64,000 nt of DNA from NCBI RefSeq assembly GCF_006345805.1, contig NC_042997.1:125488001-125552000 (forward strand), in the 5' to 3' direction. The notes under the pieces are model-generated. The model had not been told where the DNA came from. It made no database searches and saw only the letters and a list, made by a program, of their open reading frames with translations. Positions 515 to 62,078 of the stretch are shown here, piece by piece (position 1 is the first letter of the stretch; every line of letters starts with the position of its first letter). The translations under genes and the position numbers were made by a program. The DNA comes from Octopus sinensis. Lineage: Eukaryota.

Positions 515-900
515 TCTCTCTTCTACTTGTTTCAGTCATTTGACTGCGGCCATGCTGGAGCACCGCCTTTAGTCGAGCAAATCGTCCCAGGACTTATTCT
601 TTGTAAGCCTAGTAGTTATTCTATCGGTCTTTTTGCTGAACCGCTCAATGATGGAGACGTAAACACACCAGCATCGGTTGTCAAGCAATGTGTTGGGGAC
701 AAACACACAAACATATACACACACATACATATATACGACGGGCTTCTTTCAGGTTCCGTCTACCAAATCCACTCACAAGGCTTTGGTCAGACCAAGGCTA
801 TAGTAGAAGACACTTGCCCAAGGTGCAACGCAGTGGGACTGAACCCGGAACTATGTGGTTGGTAAGCAAGCTACTTACCACACAGCCACTCCTGCGCCTA
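515..900 (-). mobile_element. tRNA-derived SINE, family A, near full length
   Basis: Minus-strand head GGAGTGGCTGTGTGGTAAG...CCGGGTTCAGTCCC (A/B-box-like), internal CA/TA microsatellite, 3' end ...ATGACTGAAACAAGTA; many matching copies in the window. Confidence 0.9.
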
Positions 901-1846
901 TCAACTACTTTTTATCTATGGTCCCCTTTGATTATTATTTTATTCTGTATAAACTCCACAGACACTTGATTTTTAAAAGCTAGTTTTATAGATACTTCTT
1001 TCAAAATACCGATGTTGTTCATAACACATTCACTTGTGTAGTTGGACTATGTAAATCGTTAAAGAAACCTGTTTCTTGCAATAAATAAATCTATAGCGAA
1101 ATTTATCATGAGCTCTTGGAATAAATCTGTGAACCTAATTTACTATTTTTCTTATATGAATCCCCAAAAATCTTATATGAGTTCCAGGAATTATATAGGC
1201 CCCGGTTGAGAATCACTGGTCCGTGAGGATATGCTGTCTTTTCTTTTTCAAGAATAATGTAACCAGTGATTTTTCCTTTTCAAGCCAGATGTAGCGTGAT
1301 TTGAAGGAGGCCATGTTGTTATTTCTATCAGGTCACTGACGCTCCATCGTTGTTTCATTCTGTGATAAAATAATCGAAGCTAGTGTATAAGGGAAATGGG
1401 GTAGAACAGTCAACTGTTTGCACCAGTGAAACTCATTTTATCGACTTCTCAAGAATAAAAGATTTGAACTGAAAACAAAACAGCGATACCACTTGCAGAA
1501 GTAAAAAATAGATATTCACTTCCGAAGTCTCTGGTTAATTAAAGAAAAAATACGACATACAGTTCATGTGTAAAAGTCTAAACAGCATTCAGTTGTAAAA
1601 CGGTGACGGGTGACGAAATTAAATAAAATCCGTAGAGAACTTTCTGGTTTGCGTCTCGGCCCTACCTTCTTTTCCATTCAAATTTGTATTATCATGAACA
1701 AAAGAAATAAATAAGTCTCCTTTAATGAAATTCCTAATCTATGGGGAGCTGCAAATGCTATAAGCAATGATCTGACAACTAAGATTAAAGTATTAGAATA
1801 ATGAAAGTTTGTCTTTATATACATTAGTCAAATAAAGATGAGAAGT

Positions 1847-10554: not shown

Positions 10555-12990
10555 TAGGTACAAATCTAAAACTGTATATTGAGTACTGAATTTGCAAATT
10601 TCTTATCATTGGTCCATAGAAGTGTTATTTCTCTCTTATTTTTCTGACCACGTCAGTGTCCATCGGGTGGCCGACTTCCACAACACAGCATTTTATACTA
10701 CAGTTACACATGTATGTATATCAGGTCTGTTGTGCTTATATTTTATTGAGGTCTTCACTGGTACATTCTACCAGTATTTTTTTTTATTATGAGTGGCTAT
10801 GGCTTCTACCATATTGTGAGTTCATTGTGTCCTAGCTGCGTCATGTCTCATCGGTAGATAATAGCGTGATGACATTTTCAGACAACTGCTTATGATATGC
10901 GTGATATCTTCAGTGTAAAGCTATCACGCCTTTGCTGCATCTCTATCCCTTTTGTGCATCAGGTATTTGGTTGATATTTCCTGTTCCTGGATTGCAAACG
11001 CATACCCTTCAAAGTGGGAGGTAGTAATCTGGCTATTGGTCGATGATAAACTGCTTTGATGATCGATGTTACCATCATCGCGGAGCTTTCTACTAACATA
11101 TCCATGCCTAGTCTTCTGCTCATACAGGCTCATCCTTTCATCTGGTGATATGTTGCGGTAGAGTCGTGCGACTTCTTTCAGCATGTATTCTAGGTTATCA
11201 GACAATGAGTGTTGCTCAAAGAGCTGCCTTCTAAGTCTTATGATGTTATCAACCTCATGTATGCAGACTTGGTCAAGGGATCTACTTCGACACTTGGTGG
11301 TTAAAAGATGTTGCCGGGGGGGGGGGTATGATGCGATATTCAAAAGCATTTTAAATCGATGTTAAGCCTCTACCGCCTTGTTTTCGTTTTAGGTAGAGGC
11401 GGTGTACACCACTGTTTATGCGGAAATTATGTGTGCTTGTTAGTATTTTTCGGCTTTTCACATCAATGGCTCGGATCTCATCAAGCGTCCAATCAAGCAT
11501 CCCTAATGTTGGTATAGGTACTAGCACTGAAAACACATTGTTGGTCACTGTTTTATTGAATGCAGGGAGTTCTAAGGTCCAAATTTTCTTTATTCAACTG
11601 TTATATTCTTTAGTGATAGTGTTTTGTTGCAGGGACCATTATAAGATATATTTTCATCCACCCCTAGATACCTGTAATATTCCTCGTCAGATACAGGGCA
11701 AACAGTCAAATGATTGATGGAGATATTGCTAGTTTGGTTTATAGTCTTCCCCCTTTTCACAATCATATAACATTTATCTTGACCAAACTCCAACCCTACA
11801 TCCTTTGAAAATGTTGTAATTAGGTCAAGGCTCTTTTTCATCTCATGCATATTCTTCGCATAAAGTTTTAAGTCATCCACAAAGAAACAGTGTGTAATTT
11901 TAGTATTTCTGTTACCTTGTGAACCAGTGAGATACCTTCAGACCGCTTTAACAAAGGGTTTACAGAAAGTATACACAATATCACAGAGAGGCTGTCTTCT
12001 TGGAATATGCCTTTGCGATATTGTATTCTATCGGTGATAATACAGTCACTCTTTGCGTTTAATTTCAAGATGGTGGTCCACGATGAAGTCAGGTCAGCTA
12101 TGGCTTTGACTATTCTCACTAGAACTTTAGCAAGCTGAAGGGCTTCTAGCATCCATGAGTGGGGAACAGATTCAAAGGCCTTCTTGCAGTCTAGCCACAT
12201 TGAAACTAGGTTGTTCCTATTCTCTCGCATCTCAGACAACACAGTTTTGTAGATTAACAATTACTCGGTACATCCTTCTTCCCAGCCGCATGTTTTGATG
12301 TGATAATGTTATTGGTTTCACAATGGTCGTAGAAAAAGAGGTTTAAACACGCTGTATATATTTTGTACATTAAGTTCTGGCATGCAATTGGCCGGTAGCT
12401 TTTTTGCCATGTGGGTGGTTCTGCATTTGGGGATCAATTTTGTCTCTGCCAGAGCTAGCCGGTGTGGTATGCTACTGTTCCCAATGAAAGCTTGCCGATA
12501 CAGATTGATAAGATATGGTCGATAGAATGTTTGCTTCTTGTACCAATATCCAACAATCAAGTCTCTTCTAGGAGCTTTTCTATCTTGGAGTTTCTGAATC
12601 AGAGTTTGCAAGAGTTTCACTATCAATGTTGTATGTCTTGGATGTAACGCAGAAGTAATAACTTTTTCGGATTTCTCCCAGCCACAGAGCATCCTGGTTA
12701 AATTCCTCCTCTTCACTCCAGATTTTCCTCCAGAAGGAGTCTATGTCTTCTTGTGAAGGAGCTTCCATAATGTTTACTACTCCTCCTCTCATGTCTCTAT
12801 CTTCTGATGTCGAAGTTTTTCACTGACAGCTTTTAGCTCCTGCTTGAGGGTAATCAGTTTGAAAGTGAGTGTATTCTTTTTGATGTCTCCAAACATCACA
12901 TCTATCTCCTTCTTCACTTTCTGTTGGTGGGACTTTCTCCTCGACAAAGTCCTTCAAAGCCAAATTTCTTTTTCTCGGGAAATTTCAGTA
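10555..12990 (-). mobile_element. Decayed R4/Dong-like LINE with RT domain (frameshifted)
   Basis: ORF pieces WLDCKKAFESVPHSW, GIFQEDSLS, MDDLKLYAK, YRYLGV, RLYLKRKQGGRGL, YAFAIQEQEI in collinear order. Confidence 0.9.
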
Positions 12991-13917: not shown

Positions 13918-15197
13918 TATTTCTTTATTGGCCACACAGGGCTGAACACAAAGGAGACAAAATACAAAATAGGGTTTTTCTTTTTGGGAAGGAAAAAAAG
14001 GGTGGGGTAGAATTTCGATCAAAAAGGATCGTGGAACAAAATGGGTGGAATCCGATCAATAGGGATCGTGTATCACAGAAATGTCATGGTGTAAAATGGG
14101 AAACAGATTAGGTTTCTCTGTGGAAAGAAAAGCCTACAGAAAAGACCACGGTAACCGCAGGCAATGTCATGCAAAAAGCATATTATAGTAAGTGACTCTC
14201 TTTTTTTTTCTTTTTTTTCTTGTTCATAGGATCATGCTCAAGGTGGCTCCGTCATTCCCTCGTGCCATCCTTGCTACATTCACTCATATTTTTTTGAAAC
14301 ATTAACTAAACAAAACTTCCATATCTGCTCTCACCTTCCCCTTCAAGCGATACTTGAAGAAGTTGATGAGAGATTCACCTGAGAGGAAAGTGTTTGTCTC
14401 TAGAACTTTCAGACACATCCACCATACACATTCTTTCACCATAGCCACAAGTACGATGAAAATGGCTCTTCCTTCCCATTTCAGGGAAGCGCGACAATAT
14501 TCATGATAGACTCAGTTGATAAACTGACTCGTCCCATACTCGATAGCAGTCGTTCGACATAAGCCCACAGGTCGGAAATGGTTGAACACTGTACGAGTGC
14601 GTGCAGAACGGTTTTGTCGCTCTGAACGCATCTCGGGTAGGTCGGCCCCGTCTTTCTCGAGCCATGCTTATAGAGCTTATCCCGAACGGGTGGCGCTTCT
14701 CGAGAGCACTGCCAGGCCAGGGATTTCTGGAAGTTGTCCATAGGTCCCGTCCCGAAATTCGTCTTGAACAGGCGGGTCAGGTATTCCTCATCGACGCCCA
14801 GGTTCACTCCGAGATCGTTGTCGTATCTCGCCCCCATTAATCCCCAATAGAATGCTTTGGTTGTGCTGCAGTCGCCGAAGGTCGACCCGGGACGGCAGAC
14901 TTGGTCGAGAGCAGCGCGACACACGCAGTGCCATTCGTCCTTTTTCGGCCTCATTTTGATCCACAACTGCAGTTTGGTCATGGAGACGAGTTGTGGGAAA
15001 GTGCTTCTCACAAACGGCGACCACATCTATTCGCCGTCGTCTATGTAGAGTCGGAGATGTCGCAGTCTCAGCGCGTGTCTGCGCATCATCAGCCACGGCA
15101 TGTCCAGCCGACCATTGGAAATCATCCTTTCCACAAAAAGCGGAAGAGAATGCGTTCTAGTTTGGTGATGGTCGGGTCGGGATAAGGCACGACGGTC
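13918..15197 (-). mobile_element. 5'-truncated L1/Tx1-like LINE 3' portion
   Basis: LERILFRFLWKG, PVRDKLY and zinc-finger-like PRCVQSDKTVLHALVQC; 3'UTR ends aataaagaaata; (GATA)n on both sides. Confidence 0.75.
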
Positions 15198-15722
<525 letters not shown>

Positions 15723-26492: not shown

Positions 26493-26867
26493 ACTCTTTT
26501 ACTCTTTTACTCTTTTACTTGTTTCAGTCATTTGACTGCGGCCATGCTGGAGCACCACCTTTTAGTACTTATTCTATCGGTCTCTTTTTGCCGAACCGCT
26601 AAGTGACGGGGACGTGAACACACCAGCATCGGTTGTCAAGCAATGCTAGGGGGACAAACACAGACACACAAACACACACACATATACATATATATACATA
26701 TATACGACAGGCTTCTTTCAGTTTCCGTCTACCAAATCCACTCACAAGGCATTGGTCGGCCCGGGGCTATAGCAGAAGACACTTGCCCAAGATGCCACGC
26801 AGTGGGACTGAACCCGCAACCGTGTGGTTGGTTAGCAAGCTACTTACCACACAGCCACTCCTGCGCC

Positions 26868-26870
<3 letters not shown>
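26493..26870 (-). mobile_element. SINE A near full length
   Basis: Family match, (tactcttt)n tail. Confidence 0.9.
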
Positions 26871-26903
<33 letters not shown>

Positions 26904-31230: not shown

Positions 31231-31490
31231 TTTCTGATATTCTTTAAAGATCTCTGTGATTATGAAATCACTGTAGATACTGTGATTATTTCTGGTGTTA
31301 AAAACATTGGAATTAATATCAGATATGAATGTTATTACTTAATTAATTTTAATGGTTTATTTAATCAAAATAATCAAAATAGTTTATCAAAATATTTGTG
31401 TGTGAAAAACAATAACTTCCATAGTAACTACTAAAGGTTGTCCAGGCTTTTCAAATGAAGAACTCTAATATAGGGTGGAAGTAGAACACA

Positions 31491-31908
31491 TATTTCTTTA
31501 CTGCCCACAAGGGGCTACACACAGAGGGGAGAAACAAAGACAGATTAACGGATTAAGTCGATTACATCGACCCCAGTGCGTAACAGGTACTTATTTAATC
31601 GACCCCGAAAGGCTGAAAGGCAAAGTTGACCTCAGCGGAATTTGAACTGAGAACGTAGCGGCAGACGAAAATACCTATTTCTTTACTACCCACAAGGGGC
31701 TAAACACAGAGAGGACAAACAAGGACTGACAAACAGATTAAATCGATTATATCGACTCCAGTGCGTAACTGGTATTTAATTTATCGATCCCGAAAGGATG
31801 AAAGGCAAAGTCAACCTCGGCGGAATTTGAACTCACAACGTAGTGCCAGACGAAATACAGCTACGCATTTCGCCCGACGTGCTAATGTTTCTGCCAGATC
31901 GCCGCCTT
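31491..31908 (-). mobile_element. SINE family B dimer
   Basis: Two core+tail units; imperfect TSD tggaagtagaacaca / tggtagtagaataca. Confidence 0.9.
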
Positions 31909-58014: not shown

Positions 58015-58422
<408 letters not shown>

Positions 58423-58430
58423 TAATATAT

Positions 58431-58472
<42 letters not shown>

Positions 58473-58474
58473 CA

Positions 58475-59717
58475 GTATATAAGCAGTATATAGGCCATAC
58501 AAAAAATAGCTTACGTAACAGGATGGCGGTGCATAAATCACAAATTAGAAACCCTGATTACCGCAAAATACCGGTCAGCGGACACATAGATAGATGTGCT
58601 GGAAATGTAAATCTGAAATTTACAACTAACCCGCTCTATAAATTCAGTGACAACGCAACCTTCACACAACGCCAAAATAAAGAACTATATTTCATAAAAA
58701 AAATTAGACCAAGTTTAAACACCCTGGGCCAGGAATACTAAAACAAAAGATAAGTCCTCCGAAAAGGAGAAGCAAAATTCCACCACGGCCGCTACTTTAA
58801 ACAGACACTCGCTCTGACGGAAATATGCCTTAGTAAAAAAGGAAAAAAATTCTTTCGTGCAAATCTGACCCTGATACATACGATACAGCTAAGGGTCAGA
58901 CCCGATTCTGATTGGTCAACAAGTTGATGACGTCTAGCTCTGCTAGAATGGACAGGACACAAACAGGGGACAGTCATTAGTCAGAATATTGATGACGTCC
59001 TTTTCTGCTTGACTAGTTACCTAACAAGTACAGACAGGGGGCAGATCTAATGTAGCTATAAGTCGTGATTGGGCAGAATCTGGATGACGTCCCGTTCTGC
59101 TTGACTAACGAAGCGACTGGTCAAAACAGGAAACAAACAAGAGGCAGTTATAATGCAGCGATTGGTCAAAATGATGATGACGTCCCGTTCTGCTTGAATA
59201 AAGCCACCTAACGAAACGATTGGTCAAAACGTTGATGACGTCACGCTACGCTAGATTGACCACCTAACAGGCATTATAAAACCGAGCACTTCACAAAACC
59301 CACTAGATCCACCCAGCGAACATCCACCATGGGTCATCACAATTGCTTAAGGTAAAAATGAATTCCTCGCTCTTTCGGAAACATCAATCTTCTGTATTGA
59401 CCGCTTTCCACCACTTTGATCTGTTTTTTGTATTGAATACGTATCACCACCGTGGGCCACTGCATCGAACACTTTGAACATATACTTCAAACTATATATC
59501 AACTATACATGAACTATATATCAACTATACATGAACTCTAAGATGTCTGACTCCGTTGTGTATTATAAATGAATTTCTTGTGTTTGACGGCATGAGCTGT
59601 CTTTTTTTATATATAACTTTTTTGATAAGGTTCATTTCAGGAACTGAAACATGTTATAATGTATATATAAAAATTAAAAATTGTATAATACAGCAGCATT
59701 TTCGAACTTCATTTTTT

Positions 59718-59720
<3 letters not shown>
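58475..59720 (+). mobile_element. Penelope-like element 3' end: GIY-YIG C-terminus plus pseudo-LTR
   Basis: HKSQIR...VSGHIDRC...RQNKELYFIKKIRPSLN; degenerate HHR TTGATAA-ggttc..gaact-GAAA-catg-TT at ~59622-59655; (TA)n on both sides. Confidence 0.75.
58911..59281 (+). promoter_or_regulatory. Five ATTGG-N12-TGACGTC modules followed by TATAAAA
   Basis: ATTGG/ATTAG at 58911, 58976, 59068, 59161, 59219, each with TGACGTC starting 17 bp later; TATAAAA 59275-59281. Confidence 0.65.
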
Positions 59721-59794
<74 letters not shown>

Positions 59795-59914
59795 GTATGT
59801 ATGTATGTATGTATACATATATACATACACACACACATACACACACACACTCATATATATATATTCTTTTCTTCGTTTCAGCCTTGCAGCTGTGGTCATG
59901 CTGGAGCACCACCG

Positions 59915-60812: not shown

Positions 60813-62078
60813 CAGGGGTTGGACAAAATAATAATGGAAACACCTAGCATTATAGCATCATAATTTTGAAATATCTATAAAACCGTCAAAACCTTGTTTA
60901 TTTTTTATGTTTTTTTTATTTATTAGTAGTGTTGTTTAATATGTTTTGCGAAAATTGCTGTTTCTTTGCAGATATCATCAGAAAAAGGTAATTAAAATTC
61001 ATTAAAATGACAGATCTATCGAACTTTCAAAGAGAGCAAATTGTTGGTGCTCATATGGCAGGCACTAGCATAATGAAAACAGCCAAAATATCTGGTGTAT
61101 CAAGAAGTACTGTCTTGAAAGTAATGACAGCCTTTGAGAAAGAGGGATAAACATCCTCGTCGAAACAAAACTCTCGAAGAAAACCAAAACTTTCAGATAA
61201 GGATCGTCAGACTCGTATACGAATTGTTAGAAAGGATCACAAAAGTACAGCTCCCAGAGTTACTGCCGAGCTTAATGACCACCTCGAGAACCAAGTTTCC
61301 ATAAAAACTGTTCGCCGGGAGCTGCACAAATGCGGATTTCACGGGAGCTGCACAAATCCGGATTTCACGGGAGGGCTACAATCAGAAAACCACTACTTTC
61401 AAAAACAAACGTTGCAAAGCGTTTAGAGTGGAGTAAAAGCTTACAGAATTGGTGCCTAGAGCAATGAAAGAATATTATTTTCTCGGACGAGTCCTCCTTT
61501 ACCTTATTTCTGACCACCGGCCGGGTATACATGTGGAGACAGCCAAAAGAAGCATTTGACCCAGACTGCTTTCTTCCAACTGTTAAACATGGAGAAGGAT
61601 CTGTAATGATCTGGAGGGCTCTATCTTGGAAATCCGCCAGCCCAATGTTTTCTCTTCATGTCAGAATTAAGACTTTTTAAGCATTTTATCTGATGAAATA
61701 CACTCTATGGTTGCGGGACTGTTTCCGGAGGGAAACGCAATCTTTCATCTTGATAATGCACCAATTCAAACAGCTAAAGTTGTTACTGAATGGCACGAAG
61801 AACATTCTAGTGAAGATCAGTGCACAGTTCTCAATATTATTGAACATTTATGGTGCATTTTTGAAAACCAGGTAAGGAATCGATATTCTCCACCATCAGT
61901 ACTAGAAGAACTGGAGACTGTTTTATTTTAAGAATGGGGAAAAATTCCTTTGGAAACAATTAAAACTTTGTATGAGTCCATACCTCCAAGTTGTAATTAC
62001 TGCCGAAGACGGTCCTATCTCATATTAAAATAATTTTGTTTGAAATTTTAATGTGTTTCCATTATTTTGTCCAACCCC

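What the first reader, a model, noticed from the sequence alone, without database searches (positions are those of the whole stretch)
58861..59720. Penelope pseudo-LTR with fixed-spacing CCAAT/CRE array, TATA, micro-exon and a splice acceptor inside the HHR
Seen: five ATTGG(ATTAG)-N12-TGACGTC modules with identical spacing but variable spacers, then TATAAAA (59275) and CCACCATGG (ATG 59329). A donor-like AAG|GTAAAA follows at 59351/59352, and an acceptor-like ttcatttcAG| (59640) lies in the stem II loop of a degenerate HHR. Known: CCAAT binds NF-Y, TGACGTCA binds CREB/ATF, and Penelope elements can retain introns. Inference: a cAMP- or stress-responsive element promoter that could seed enhancers, with splicing and self-cleavage mutually exclusive.
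Basis: partly seen in the sequence, partly recalled or inferred. Interest (0 to 1): 0.7.

Follow-up and report, generated by a model that had tools for sequence, protein, structure and literature searches.

The report
Neptune retrotransposon tail with multimerised promoter
This is the tail end of a truncated Penelope-like retrotransposon that carries five duplicated CCAAT/CRE-like modules, a TATA box and a hammerhead ribozyme motif; it likely forms the element's own promoter, with a predicted intron ending inside the ribozyme, which is a variation on a known layout.

Summary
All listed motifs are at the stated coordinates. They sit in a 1.25-kb, 5'-truncated Penelope-like element between (TA)n arrays, most likely Neptune-type: the C-terminal half of a GIY-YIG endonuclease (58472-58741), then a 980-nt pseudo-LTR. 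The five modules are duplicated ~40-nt units, so equal spacing is partly inherited. Even so, their cores are far better kept than their flanks (1 change in 14 columns against 22 in 26), and the geometry matches the mammalian bZIP-10/12 bp-CCAAT arrangement. TATA (-30), Inr and a 47-nt first exon echo Drosophila Penelope (intron at +46). Two corrections. The hammerhead core is not degenerate: it is the known U3-A8 covariant, shared with related elements. Either acceptor removes the catalytic core, but exclusivity with cleavage is not strict, because this ribozyme type works as a dimer. An intron overlapping the hammerhead is already described for Penelope. I found no report of such a promoter array. 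Promoter activity, splicing, cAMP response and enhancer seeding are untested; only one copy was available.

The parts
58280..58470 (.). Left (TA)n array, the likely insertion target
58465..58495 (+). 5' truncation junction: 11-nt stutter (2.8 copies) of the TATATAGG that encodes Y-I-G, likely microhomology with the (TA)n target
   Evidence: mechanism inferred
58472..58741 (+). C-terminal half of a GIY-YIG endonuclease, 89 aa, ending in TAA; 3' end of the element's ORF
   Evidence: PF01541, E 3e-4, below the curated cutoff; 395 relatives at E up to 0.001, best 70% identical
58742..59721 (+). Pseudo-LTR (3' UTR, promoter, hammerhead and probable ORF start), 980 nt
   Evidence: no second copy in the window
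58911..58934 (+). Module 1: ATTGG-N10-GATGACGTC
58976..58999 (+). Module 2 (ATTAG variant)
59068..59091 (+). Module 3
59161..59184 (+). Module 4
59219..59243 (+). Module 5, the only full TGACGTCA; its CCAAT box is at -86 from the predicted start
59275..59281 (+). TATA box (TATAAAA)
59303..59309 (+). Initiator-like YYANWYY; predicted +1 = A59305, 30 nt from the TATA
   Evidence: consensus recalled
59305..59351 (+). Predicted first exon, 47 nt, with Kozak ATG at 59329 and 23 coding nt (phase 2)
   Evidence: predicted
59352..59629 (+). Predicted intron, 278 nt to the in-frame AAG at 59629 (289 nt if the CAG at 59640 is used); branch-point candidates A59587 and A59625
   Evidence: predicted
59604..59673 (+). 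Type I minimal hammerhead: distal helix I 59604-15/59662-73, core UUGAUAA 59622-28, helix II 59629-45, GAAA 59646-49, palindromic helix III 59649-54, predicted cut after 59655
59631..59720 (+). Open frame of 30 codons running to the element's end, in phase with the ATG exon through the 59629 acceptor; candidate ORF N-terminus
   Evidence: homology test inconclusive
59722..59827 (.). Right (TA)n/(TATG)n array

Best explanation
This is the 3' end of a 5'-truncated Penelope-like element, likely of the Neptune type, lying between (TA)n arrays; its enlarged pseudo-LTR likely works as an upstream RNA polymerase II promoter for the next copy in a tandem, in which five duplicated modules would bind NF-Y and an ATF/CREB-family factor, a 47-nt first exon would supply the ATG, and a predicted intron would join it to the start of hammerhead helix II. 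Shown: the element's anatomy, the motifs, their conservation pattern, the hammerhead geometry, and the reading frames after each AG. Inferred: factor binding, the start at 59305, splicing, and use of the AAG at 59629, which is in frame and lies 42 nt after a branch-point match. Splicing would remove the ribozyme's catalytic core from the 5' end of the mRNA. Unspliced or read-through RNA would keep a full hammerhead, which would cut only with a second copy as a dimer. In this lone copy no ORF follows and no partner ribozyme lies in the window, so it would at most drive transcription into flanking DNA.
For: Element identity: an endonuclease half ending in a stop, whose long relatives are RT plus C-terminal GIY-YIG proteins. 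115 of 124 long hits carry the Zn-finger linker pattern before the YIG motif. The window fragment falls in a 98/97-supported clade with those proteins. Hammerhead: 1 descriptor hit in the window, against 0.17 per shuffled window (30 shuffles). The same U3-A8 core, ACAUGU helix III and U17 occur in L006; U3-A8 is in 3 of 7 hammerheads found in related loci and is reported for Schistosoma PLEs (PMC4209133). Promoter: core 1 change in 14 columns against 22 in 26 non-core columns, binomial P 7e-4, with no indel in the 40-column unit. The Inr is 30 nt from the TATA and the proximal CCAAT is at -86, against a reported preference near -80 in either orientation (PMC3730095). A bZIP site 10-12 bp 5' of CCAAT is a reported geometry (PMC3730095, PMC7793273). 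CRE-type hexamers lie between the stop and the hammerhead in 3 of 6 related elements: 5 sites in 1155 nt against 0.29 expected, 0 of 3000 shuffles reaching 5, and 3 sites in 10119 nt of coding control. Intron: the donor is the best of 14 GTs in the region, and D. virilis Penelope has its intron 46 bp after the start (PMC2377424). [quoted passage not shown]
Against: One copy only: no family consensus and no expression data. The 14-column core includes two columns added after seeing the alignment, and duplication alone explains equal spacing. The exact ATTGG-N12-TGACG composite is in none of the 48 related loci, and the CRE enrichment was noticed by eye before it was tested. The frame after 59629 was not shown to be a PLE N-terminus: its best placement fits the register of distant relatives, but 406 of 2000 shuffles score as well, and a 30-codon open frame has P 0.05. 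Two more in-frame AGs exist (59542, 59596). The CAG at 59640 is the better-looking acceptor, with its own branch-point match 15 nt upstream. Related pseudo-LTRs are much shorter (52-386 nt from stop to core, against 881) and often have a TATA-like box 26-44 nt before the core; here a second TATAAAT lies at 59564. As a monomer, helix II has only about 5% pairing probability, against about 75% for a rival hairpin, and the fold is no more stable than shuffles (z -1.2).
Confidence: 0.55

Rival explanations
1. One reading: same promoter and donor, but splicing goes to the CAG in loop II (59640). The ATG exon then makes a 9-codon upstream ORF and the real start lies beyond the end of this copy; or both acceptors are used, as a productive/unproductive switch.
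For: TTTCAG|G looks like the stronger acceptor, and the hammerhead core itself matches the branch consensus (A59625) 15 nt upstream and only 4 nt from the 59629 site. In L013 the ORF's ATG lies about 75 nt after the core. D. virilis has its intron in the 5' UTR.
Against: It puts a stop two codons into exon 2 behind a perfect Kozak ATG. It is the only one of 6 AGs that closes the frame. The site is buried in the favoured local hairpin (about 75% pairing).
Confidence: 0.22
2. The array, TATA, ATG exon and donor are captured host DNA (a gene promoter with its first exon) carried inside the pseudo-LTR; the element's own promoter is the TATA-like box at 59564 just before the hammerhead.
For: The pseudo-LTR is 2 to 17 times longer than in 6 relatives. 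Capture of 0.9-1.5 kb of host DNA before the pLTR is described for Adineta Pen1 (PMC3846280). The composite is absent from 48 related loci.
Against: Head-to-tail module duplication is typical of retroelement enhancers. CRE hexamers are enriched at the same place in related pseudo-LTRs. The donor position matches Penelope.
Confidence: 0.13
3. The promoter array is real but there is no intron: the Kozak ATG, donor and acceptor are chance matches, and the modules might serve host silencing as much as activation.
For: Donor-like sites occur at 2 per kb per strand. No splice reads were available. Most NF-Y-bound LTRs lack active marks (PMC3730095).
Against: Without splicing, the first ATG closes after 8 codons. 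TATA, Inr, the window's only CCACCATGG and the region's best donor fall within 80 nt in the Penelope order.
Confidence: 0.1

Closest known systems
Penelope of Drosophila virilis (PMC2377424; PMC4209133)
   Same: Promoter in the pseudo-LTR, intron about 46 nt after the start, intron end overlapping the hammerhead, helix III with a 2-nt palindromic insert.
   Different: Penelope's promoter is internal and TATA-less, its 75-nt intron lies in the 5' UTR and ends at the 5' side of helix I, so the core survives splicing. Here the promoter is upstream and has a TATA box, exon 1 carries an ATG, and the predicted intron (278-289 nt) contains the core.
Poseidon PAc of Anolis carolinensis (PMC11167929)
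   Same: [quoted passage not shown]
   Different: Its start codon is at stem II rather than in a separate exon; it is in the Penelope/Poseidon clade with a C3-G8 core; no promoter array is described in the parts I read.
Neptune clade of EN+ PLEs (PMC8557442)
   Same: C-terminal GIY-YIG, Zn-finger linker in relatives, 3' hammerhead, microsatellite target.
   Different: This copy is cut before the linker and RT; its pseudo-LTR is much longer than in 6 relatives and holds the module array.
Schistosoma mansoni PLE minimal hammerhead, U3-A8 variant (PMC4209133)
   Same: Same covariation in the catalytic core; needs a dimer.
   Different: Here there is a 6-nt palindromic helix III, a long distal helix I and U at position 17.
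NF-Y composite modules in mammalian LTRs: LTR12, MLT1, MER57B (PMC3730095, PMC12065363, PMC7793273)
   Same: Repeated CCAAT modules in a retroelement promoter, with a partner site 10-12 bp 5' of CCAAT.
   Different: Those are endogenous retrovirus LTRs with AP-1, E-box or MARE partners and measured binding. This is a non-viral element with a CRE-type partner, and binding is unmeasured; the likeness would be convergent.

Membership tests
EN+ Penelope-like elements | GIY-YIG endonuclease at the ORF's C-terminus | tested here: met
   C-terminal half ending in a stop; PF01541 at E 3e-4, under the curated cutoff; long relatives carry RT then EN
EN+ Penelope-like elements | Telomerase-related RT in the same ORF | not testable with these tools
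   Absent from this truncated copy; RVT_1 found in 5 of 7 long relatives scanned
EN+ Penelope-like elements | Hammerhead motif in the pseudo-LTR near the 3' end | tested here: met
   Descriptor hit at 59622, 1 in the window against 0.17 per shuffle; Rfam models did not detect it
EN+ Penelope-like elements | Pseudo-LTR repeated by a tandem or inverted partial copy | tested here: not met
   Single solo copy in the window; lone truncated copies are the common state per PMC4209133
EN+ Penelope-like elements | Pseudo-LTR overlaps the ORF's first codons | tested here: inconclusive
   Open frame to the element's end; profile match not significant
Neptune clade | CX2-5CxxC Zn-finger linker before the GIY-YIG motif | tested here: inconclusive
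   Lost by truncation in this copy; pattern present in 115 of 124 long relatives
Neptune clade | RT phylogeny groups with named Neptune elements | not testable with these tools
   No RT here and no named reference set; the EN tree groups it with linker-bearing relatives
Naiad clade | N-terminal EN followed by RT, no canonical hammerhead | tested here: not met
   EN ends in a stop and is followed by non-coding DNA and a hammerhead
Type I minimal hammerhead | Core YUGANRA with a 3-8 pair, helix II, GAAA, palindromic helix III, UH site, helix I | tested here: met
   G-U closes helix II and one proximal helix I pair is mismatched
Type I minimal hammerhead | Self-cleavage as a dimer | not testable with these tools
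   Needs a cleavage assay; self-duplex of 59648-59655 is -6.4 kcal/mol
NF-Y/bZIP composite promoter | CCAAT with a bZIP site 10-12 bp on its 5' side; proximal CCAAT near -80 | tested here: met
   12 nt in 5 of 5 modules; -86 against PMC3730095 and PMC7793273
NF-Y/bZIP composite promoter | Factor binding and motif-dependent transcription | not testable with these tools
   Needs binding and reporter assays

The most novel reading that the evidence does not exclude
A Neptune lineage has evolved a retrovirus-U3-like enhancer by multimerising an NF-Y/ATF module, and has folded its splice signals into its ribozyme. The hammerhead's catalytic core doubles as a branch point, and two acceptors 11 nt apart in helix II choose between protein-coding mRNA and a 9-codon decoy, so splicing sorts transcripts into messenger or cleavable template. 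Because the promoter sits at the 3' end, every truncated copy deposits an intact inducible promoter with a splice donor across the host genome.
Probability: 0.15. Interest if true: 0.72.

Novelty: new variant of a known kind. Interest (0 to 1): 0.42.

Why it matters
Almost nothing is known about promoters of Penelope-like elements outside Drosophila, where the promoter is internal and TATA-less. A TATA-containing upstream promoter with repeated NF-Y/bZIP modules would show LTR-style enhancer building in this class. A catalytic core inside the intron would give a simple, testable link between two unexplained PLE traits, retained introns and weak hammerheads. If function is not borne out, this is an ordinary truncated retrotransposon end.

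Tried and rejected
Rfam found no hammerhead: 0 matches at gathering level in the window, and none among 36 weak matches in the region. The first protein search with the endonuclease half found nothing; the exhaustive search did. The N-termini of long relatives start near the second ORF or exon and gave no match to the element's 3' frame. A profile of ORF1 N-termini from distant relatives (6 non-redundant rows) placed the frame in register but not significantly: rank 271 of 46162 windows, and 406 of 2000 shuffles as good. Pfam had no match to that frame. The ESM Atlas gave only scores of 0.77 or less. A covariance model of related hammerheads was not built, because the alignment was poor. The bacterial promoter scan is not applicable. 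One-mismatch composite hits in related loci were inspected and look like chance. A Naiad identity was rejected because the EN is terminal. Other copies of this family could not be obtained: the open collections hold no animal genomes, and the source organism of the closest protein (P0002) stayed undetermined. The host is unverified; the window's SINE-like repeats look like octopus SINEs to me (recalled, from no call).

Full report
Observation. The composite ATTRG-N10-GATGACGTC occurs 5 times in the window, all within 58911-59242. At up to 2 mismatches, 100 shuffles give a mean of 0.76 and none reaches 5. The modules are copies of one ~40-nt unit: the N12 spacer is 70% identical pairwise, the 13 nt after the CRE 71%, and the upstream flank 28%. 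Modules 2-4 are part of longer 92-93 nt duplications (69% identity over 166 nt). Equal spacing is therefore partly inherited. The pattern of change still points to selection: at least 1 substitution in 14 core columns against 22 in 26 non-core columns (binomial P 7e-4), with no indel. Two of the 14 core columns were added after I saw the alignment. Only module 5 is a full TGACGTCA.

What it sits in. The region lies in a 1.25-kb insert between (TA)n arrays (58280-58470 and from 59722), single-copy in the window. Its first 270 nt encode the C-terminal half of a GIY-YIG endonuclease ending in a stop. An exhaustive search gave 395 relatives at E up to 0.001, the best 70% identical. Long ones carry RT and a terminal GIY-YIG (RVT_1 in 5 of 7 and GIY-YIG in 6 of 7 scanned), and 115 of 124 long hits have the Zn-finger linker pattern that PMC8557442 gives for the Neptune and Nematis clades. 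The copy is cut at the Y-I-G codons, with an 11-nt stutter that suggests microhomology with the target. I file it as a 5'-truncated EN+ Penelope-like element, probably Neptune. The linker and RT are missing from this copy, so the clade rests on its relatives.

The hammerhead. Rfam misses it. A structural descriptor finds it once in the window, against 0.17 per shuffled window (30 shuffles). The core UUGAUAA is the U3-A8 covariant reported for Schistosoma PLEs (PMC4209133). A scan of genome contigs returned 48 loci with PLE-type RT in bacterial genome records; they look like eukaryotic contigs binned into those records (inference). Thirteen tails after an EN stop, in 12 loci, were examined, and 6 held a hammerhead. 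L006 has the same core, the same ACAUGU helix III, U17 and the following AUAAU; U3-A8 is in 3 of 7 hammerheads found. So the variant is conserved, not decayed. This copy does have blemishes: one proximal helix I mismatch and a G-U closing helix II. As a monomer, helix II pairs with about 5% probability, against about 75% for a hairpin that hides both GAAA and the loop-II AG. The palindromic helix III means it needs a partner copy, and none is in the window.

Promoter. TATAAAA at 59275 has an Inr match with +1 at 59305, 30 nt away, and the nearest CCAAT is at -86. TATA-plus-Inr pairs occur at 5 places in the window. On the minus strand each module reads CRE, 12 nt, CCAAT. This is the geometry reported in human cells for AP-1, E-box and TALE partners of NF-Y, with positional bias also for ATF2 and ATF3 (PMC3730095, PMC7793273). 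CRE-type hexamers lie between the stop and the hammerhead in 3 of 6 relatives: 5 sites in 1155 nt, 0.29 expected, 0 of 3000 shuffles reaching 5; coding control 3 sites in 10119 nt. I saw these by eye before testing. The full composite is in none of the 48 loci. This pseudo-LTR is long: 881 nt from stop to core, against 52-386. A CRE-containing promoter thus looks ancestral and the array lineage-specific. The invariant GATGACGT flank fits ATF2/ATF7 or CREB3/XBP1 better than CREB1 (recalled, from no call), so a cAMP response is not the default guess.

Splicing. The donor at 59352 is the best of 14 GTs in 59305-59600 (7 of 9) and gives a 47-nt first exon. D. virilis Penelope has its intron 46 bp after the start (PMC2377424). 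Unspliced, the Kozak ATG closes after 8 codons. 59542, 59596 and 59629 join a frame that is open from 59535 to the end (62 codons; about 0.005 in that frame and 0.015 in any frame by shuffling, with ends chosen after the fact). The other two AGs are within 30 nt of the end. I favour 59629: it is the first AG after the U tract, it lies 42 nt after a branch match, and it sits at the start of helix II, where the Anolis PAc ORF begins (PMC11167929). Against this, the frame's likeness to PLE N-termini is not significant, and 59640 is the better-looking acceptor, with a branch match in the ribozyme core 15 nt upstream.

Exclusivity. Both acceptors lie after the catalytic core, so splicing removes it. 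In D. virilis the intron ends at the 5' side of helix I and a ribozyme survives (PMC4209133), so intron-hammerhead overlap is known and the position here is the variation. Exclusivity is not strict. The spliced RNA keeps the palindrome and the cut site, and in a dimer the intact 3' ribozyme could still cut it (inference from the dimer model in PMC4209133). In PAc, cleavage needed protein, was dispensable for insertion in vitro, and left no read ends in RNA-seq, which lowers the weight of any such switch.

Novelty. Searches for Penelope + retrotransposon + CCAAT + CREB found 0 papers. Listings for Penelope-like with pseudo-LTR, promoter and transcription factor binding, and for hammerhead with Penelope, splice and branch point, showed no report of such an array or of a core used as branch point. 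The library lacks most subscription papers, and repeat databases were not available. What I saw: PMC4209133 and PMC11167929, parts 1-2 of 4 of the text; 10.64898/2026.07.22.740005, part 1 of 5; PMC8557442, passages and supplement search hits; PMC2377424, PMC3846280, PMC13282606, PMC3730095, PMC7793273, PMC12065363 and PMC12602865, passages only. Figures were not visible. Figure 1 of PMC8557442 marks conserved PLE introns and may bear on the intron position.

Verdict. A real and well-formed feature in a known class of element: a new variant of a known kind. cAMP response and enhancer seeding are untested. Interest 0.42.

Noticed in passing
window 61007-61423 (+): Broken Tc1/mariner transposase remnant 1.3 kb downstream on the same strand (HTH and HTH_Tnp_Tc3_2 matches), with a TTTGCAG acceptor-like site just before it that the element's donor could in principle reach.
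   Followed up: partly
window 11590-12260 (-) and 14481-15026 (-): Fragments of LINE-type retrotransposons (RVT_1 and zf-RVT matches).
   Followed up: partly
window 684-918, 26653-26887 and 6 more; 15295-15719, 31483-31908 and others: Two SINE-like dispersed repeat families (235 nt, 8 copies; a 184-nt unit often in tandem pairs). They look like octopus SINEs to me (recalled, untested).
   Followed up: no
window 58864-58900: 9-bp inverted repeat just 5' of module 1 (read); role unknown.
   Followed up: no
window 59481-59537: 22-nt tandem duplication inside the predicted intron, consistent with relaxed constraint.
   Followed up: no
window 59586-59601: Small hairpin before helix I that covers the branch candidate A59587 and the AG at 59596.
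   Followed up: no
L001 3-1268 and 1199-3514; L013 2819-3997 and 3658-4167: Related elements have a long upstream ORF1 overlapping the RT-EN frame, as in a frameshift arrangement.
   Followed up: partly
L001-L048: 48 loci with Penelope-type RT in records titled as bacterial genomes; probably eukaryotic contigs binned into them.
   Followed up: no
L006 2050-2200: Relative with the same hammerhead variant has an ATG and donor-like site upstream and TTTTAG at the 5' side of helix I, the D. virilis position; the frame after it closes quickly.
   Followed up: partly
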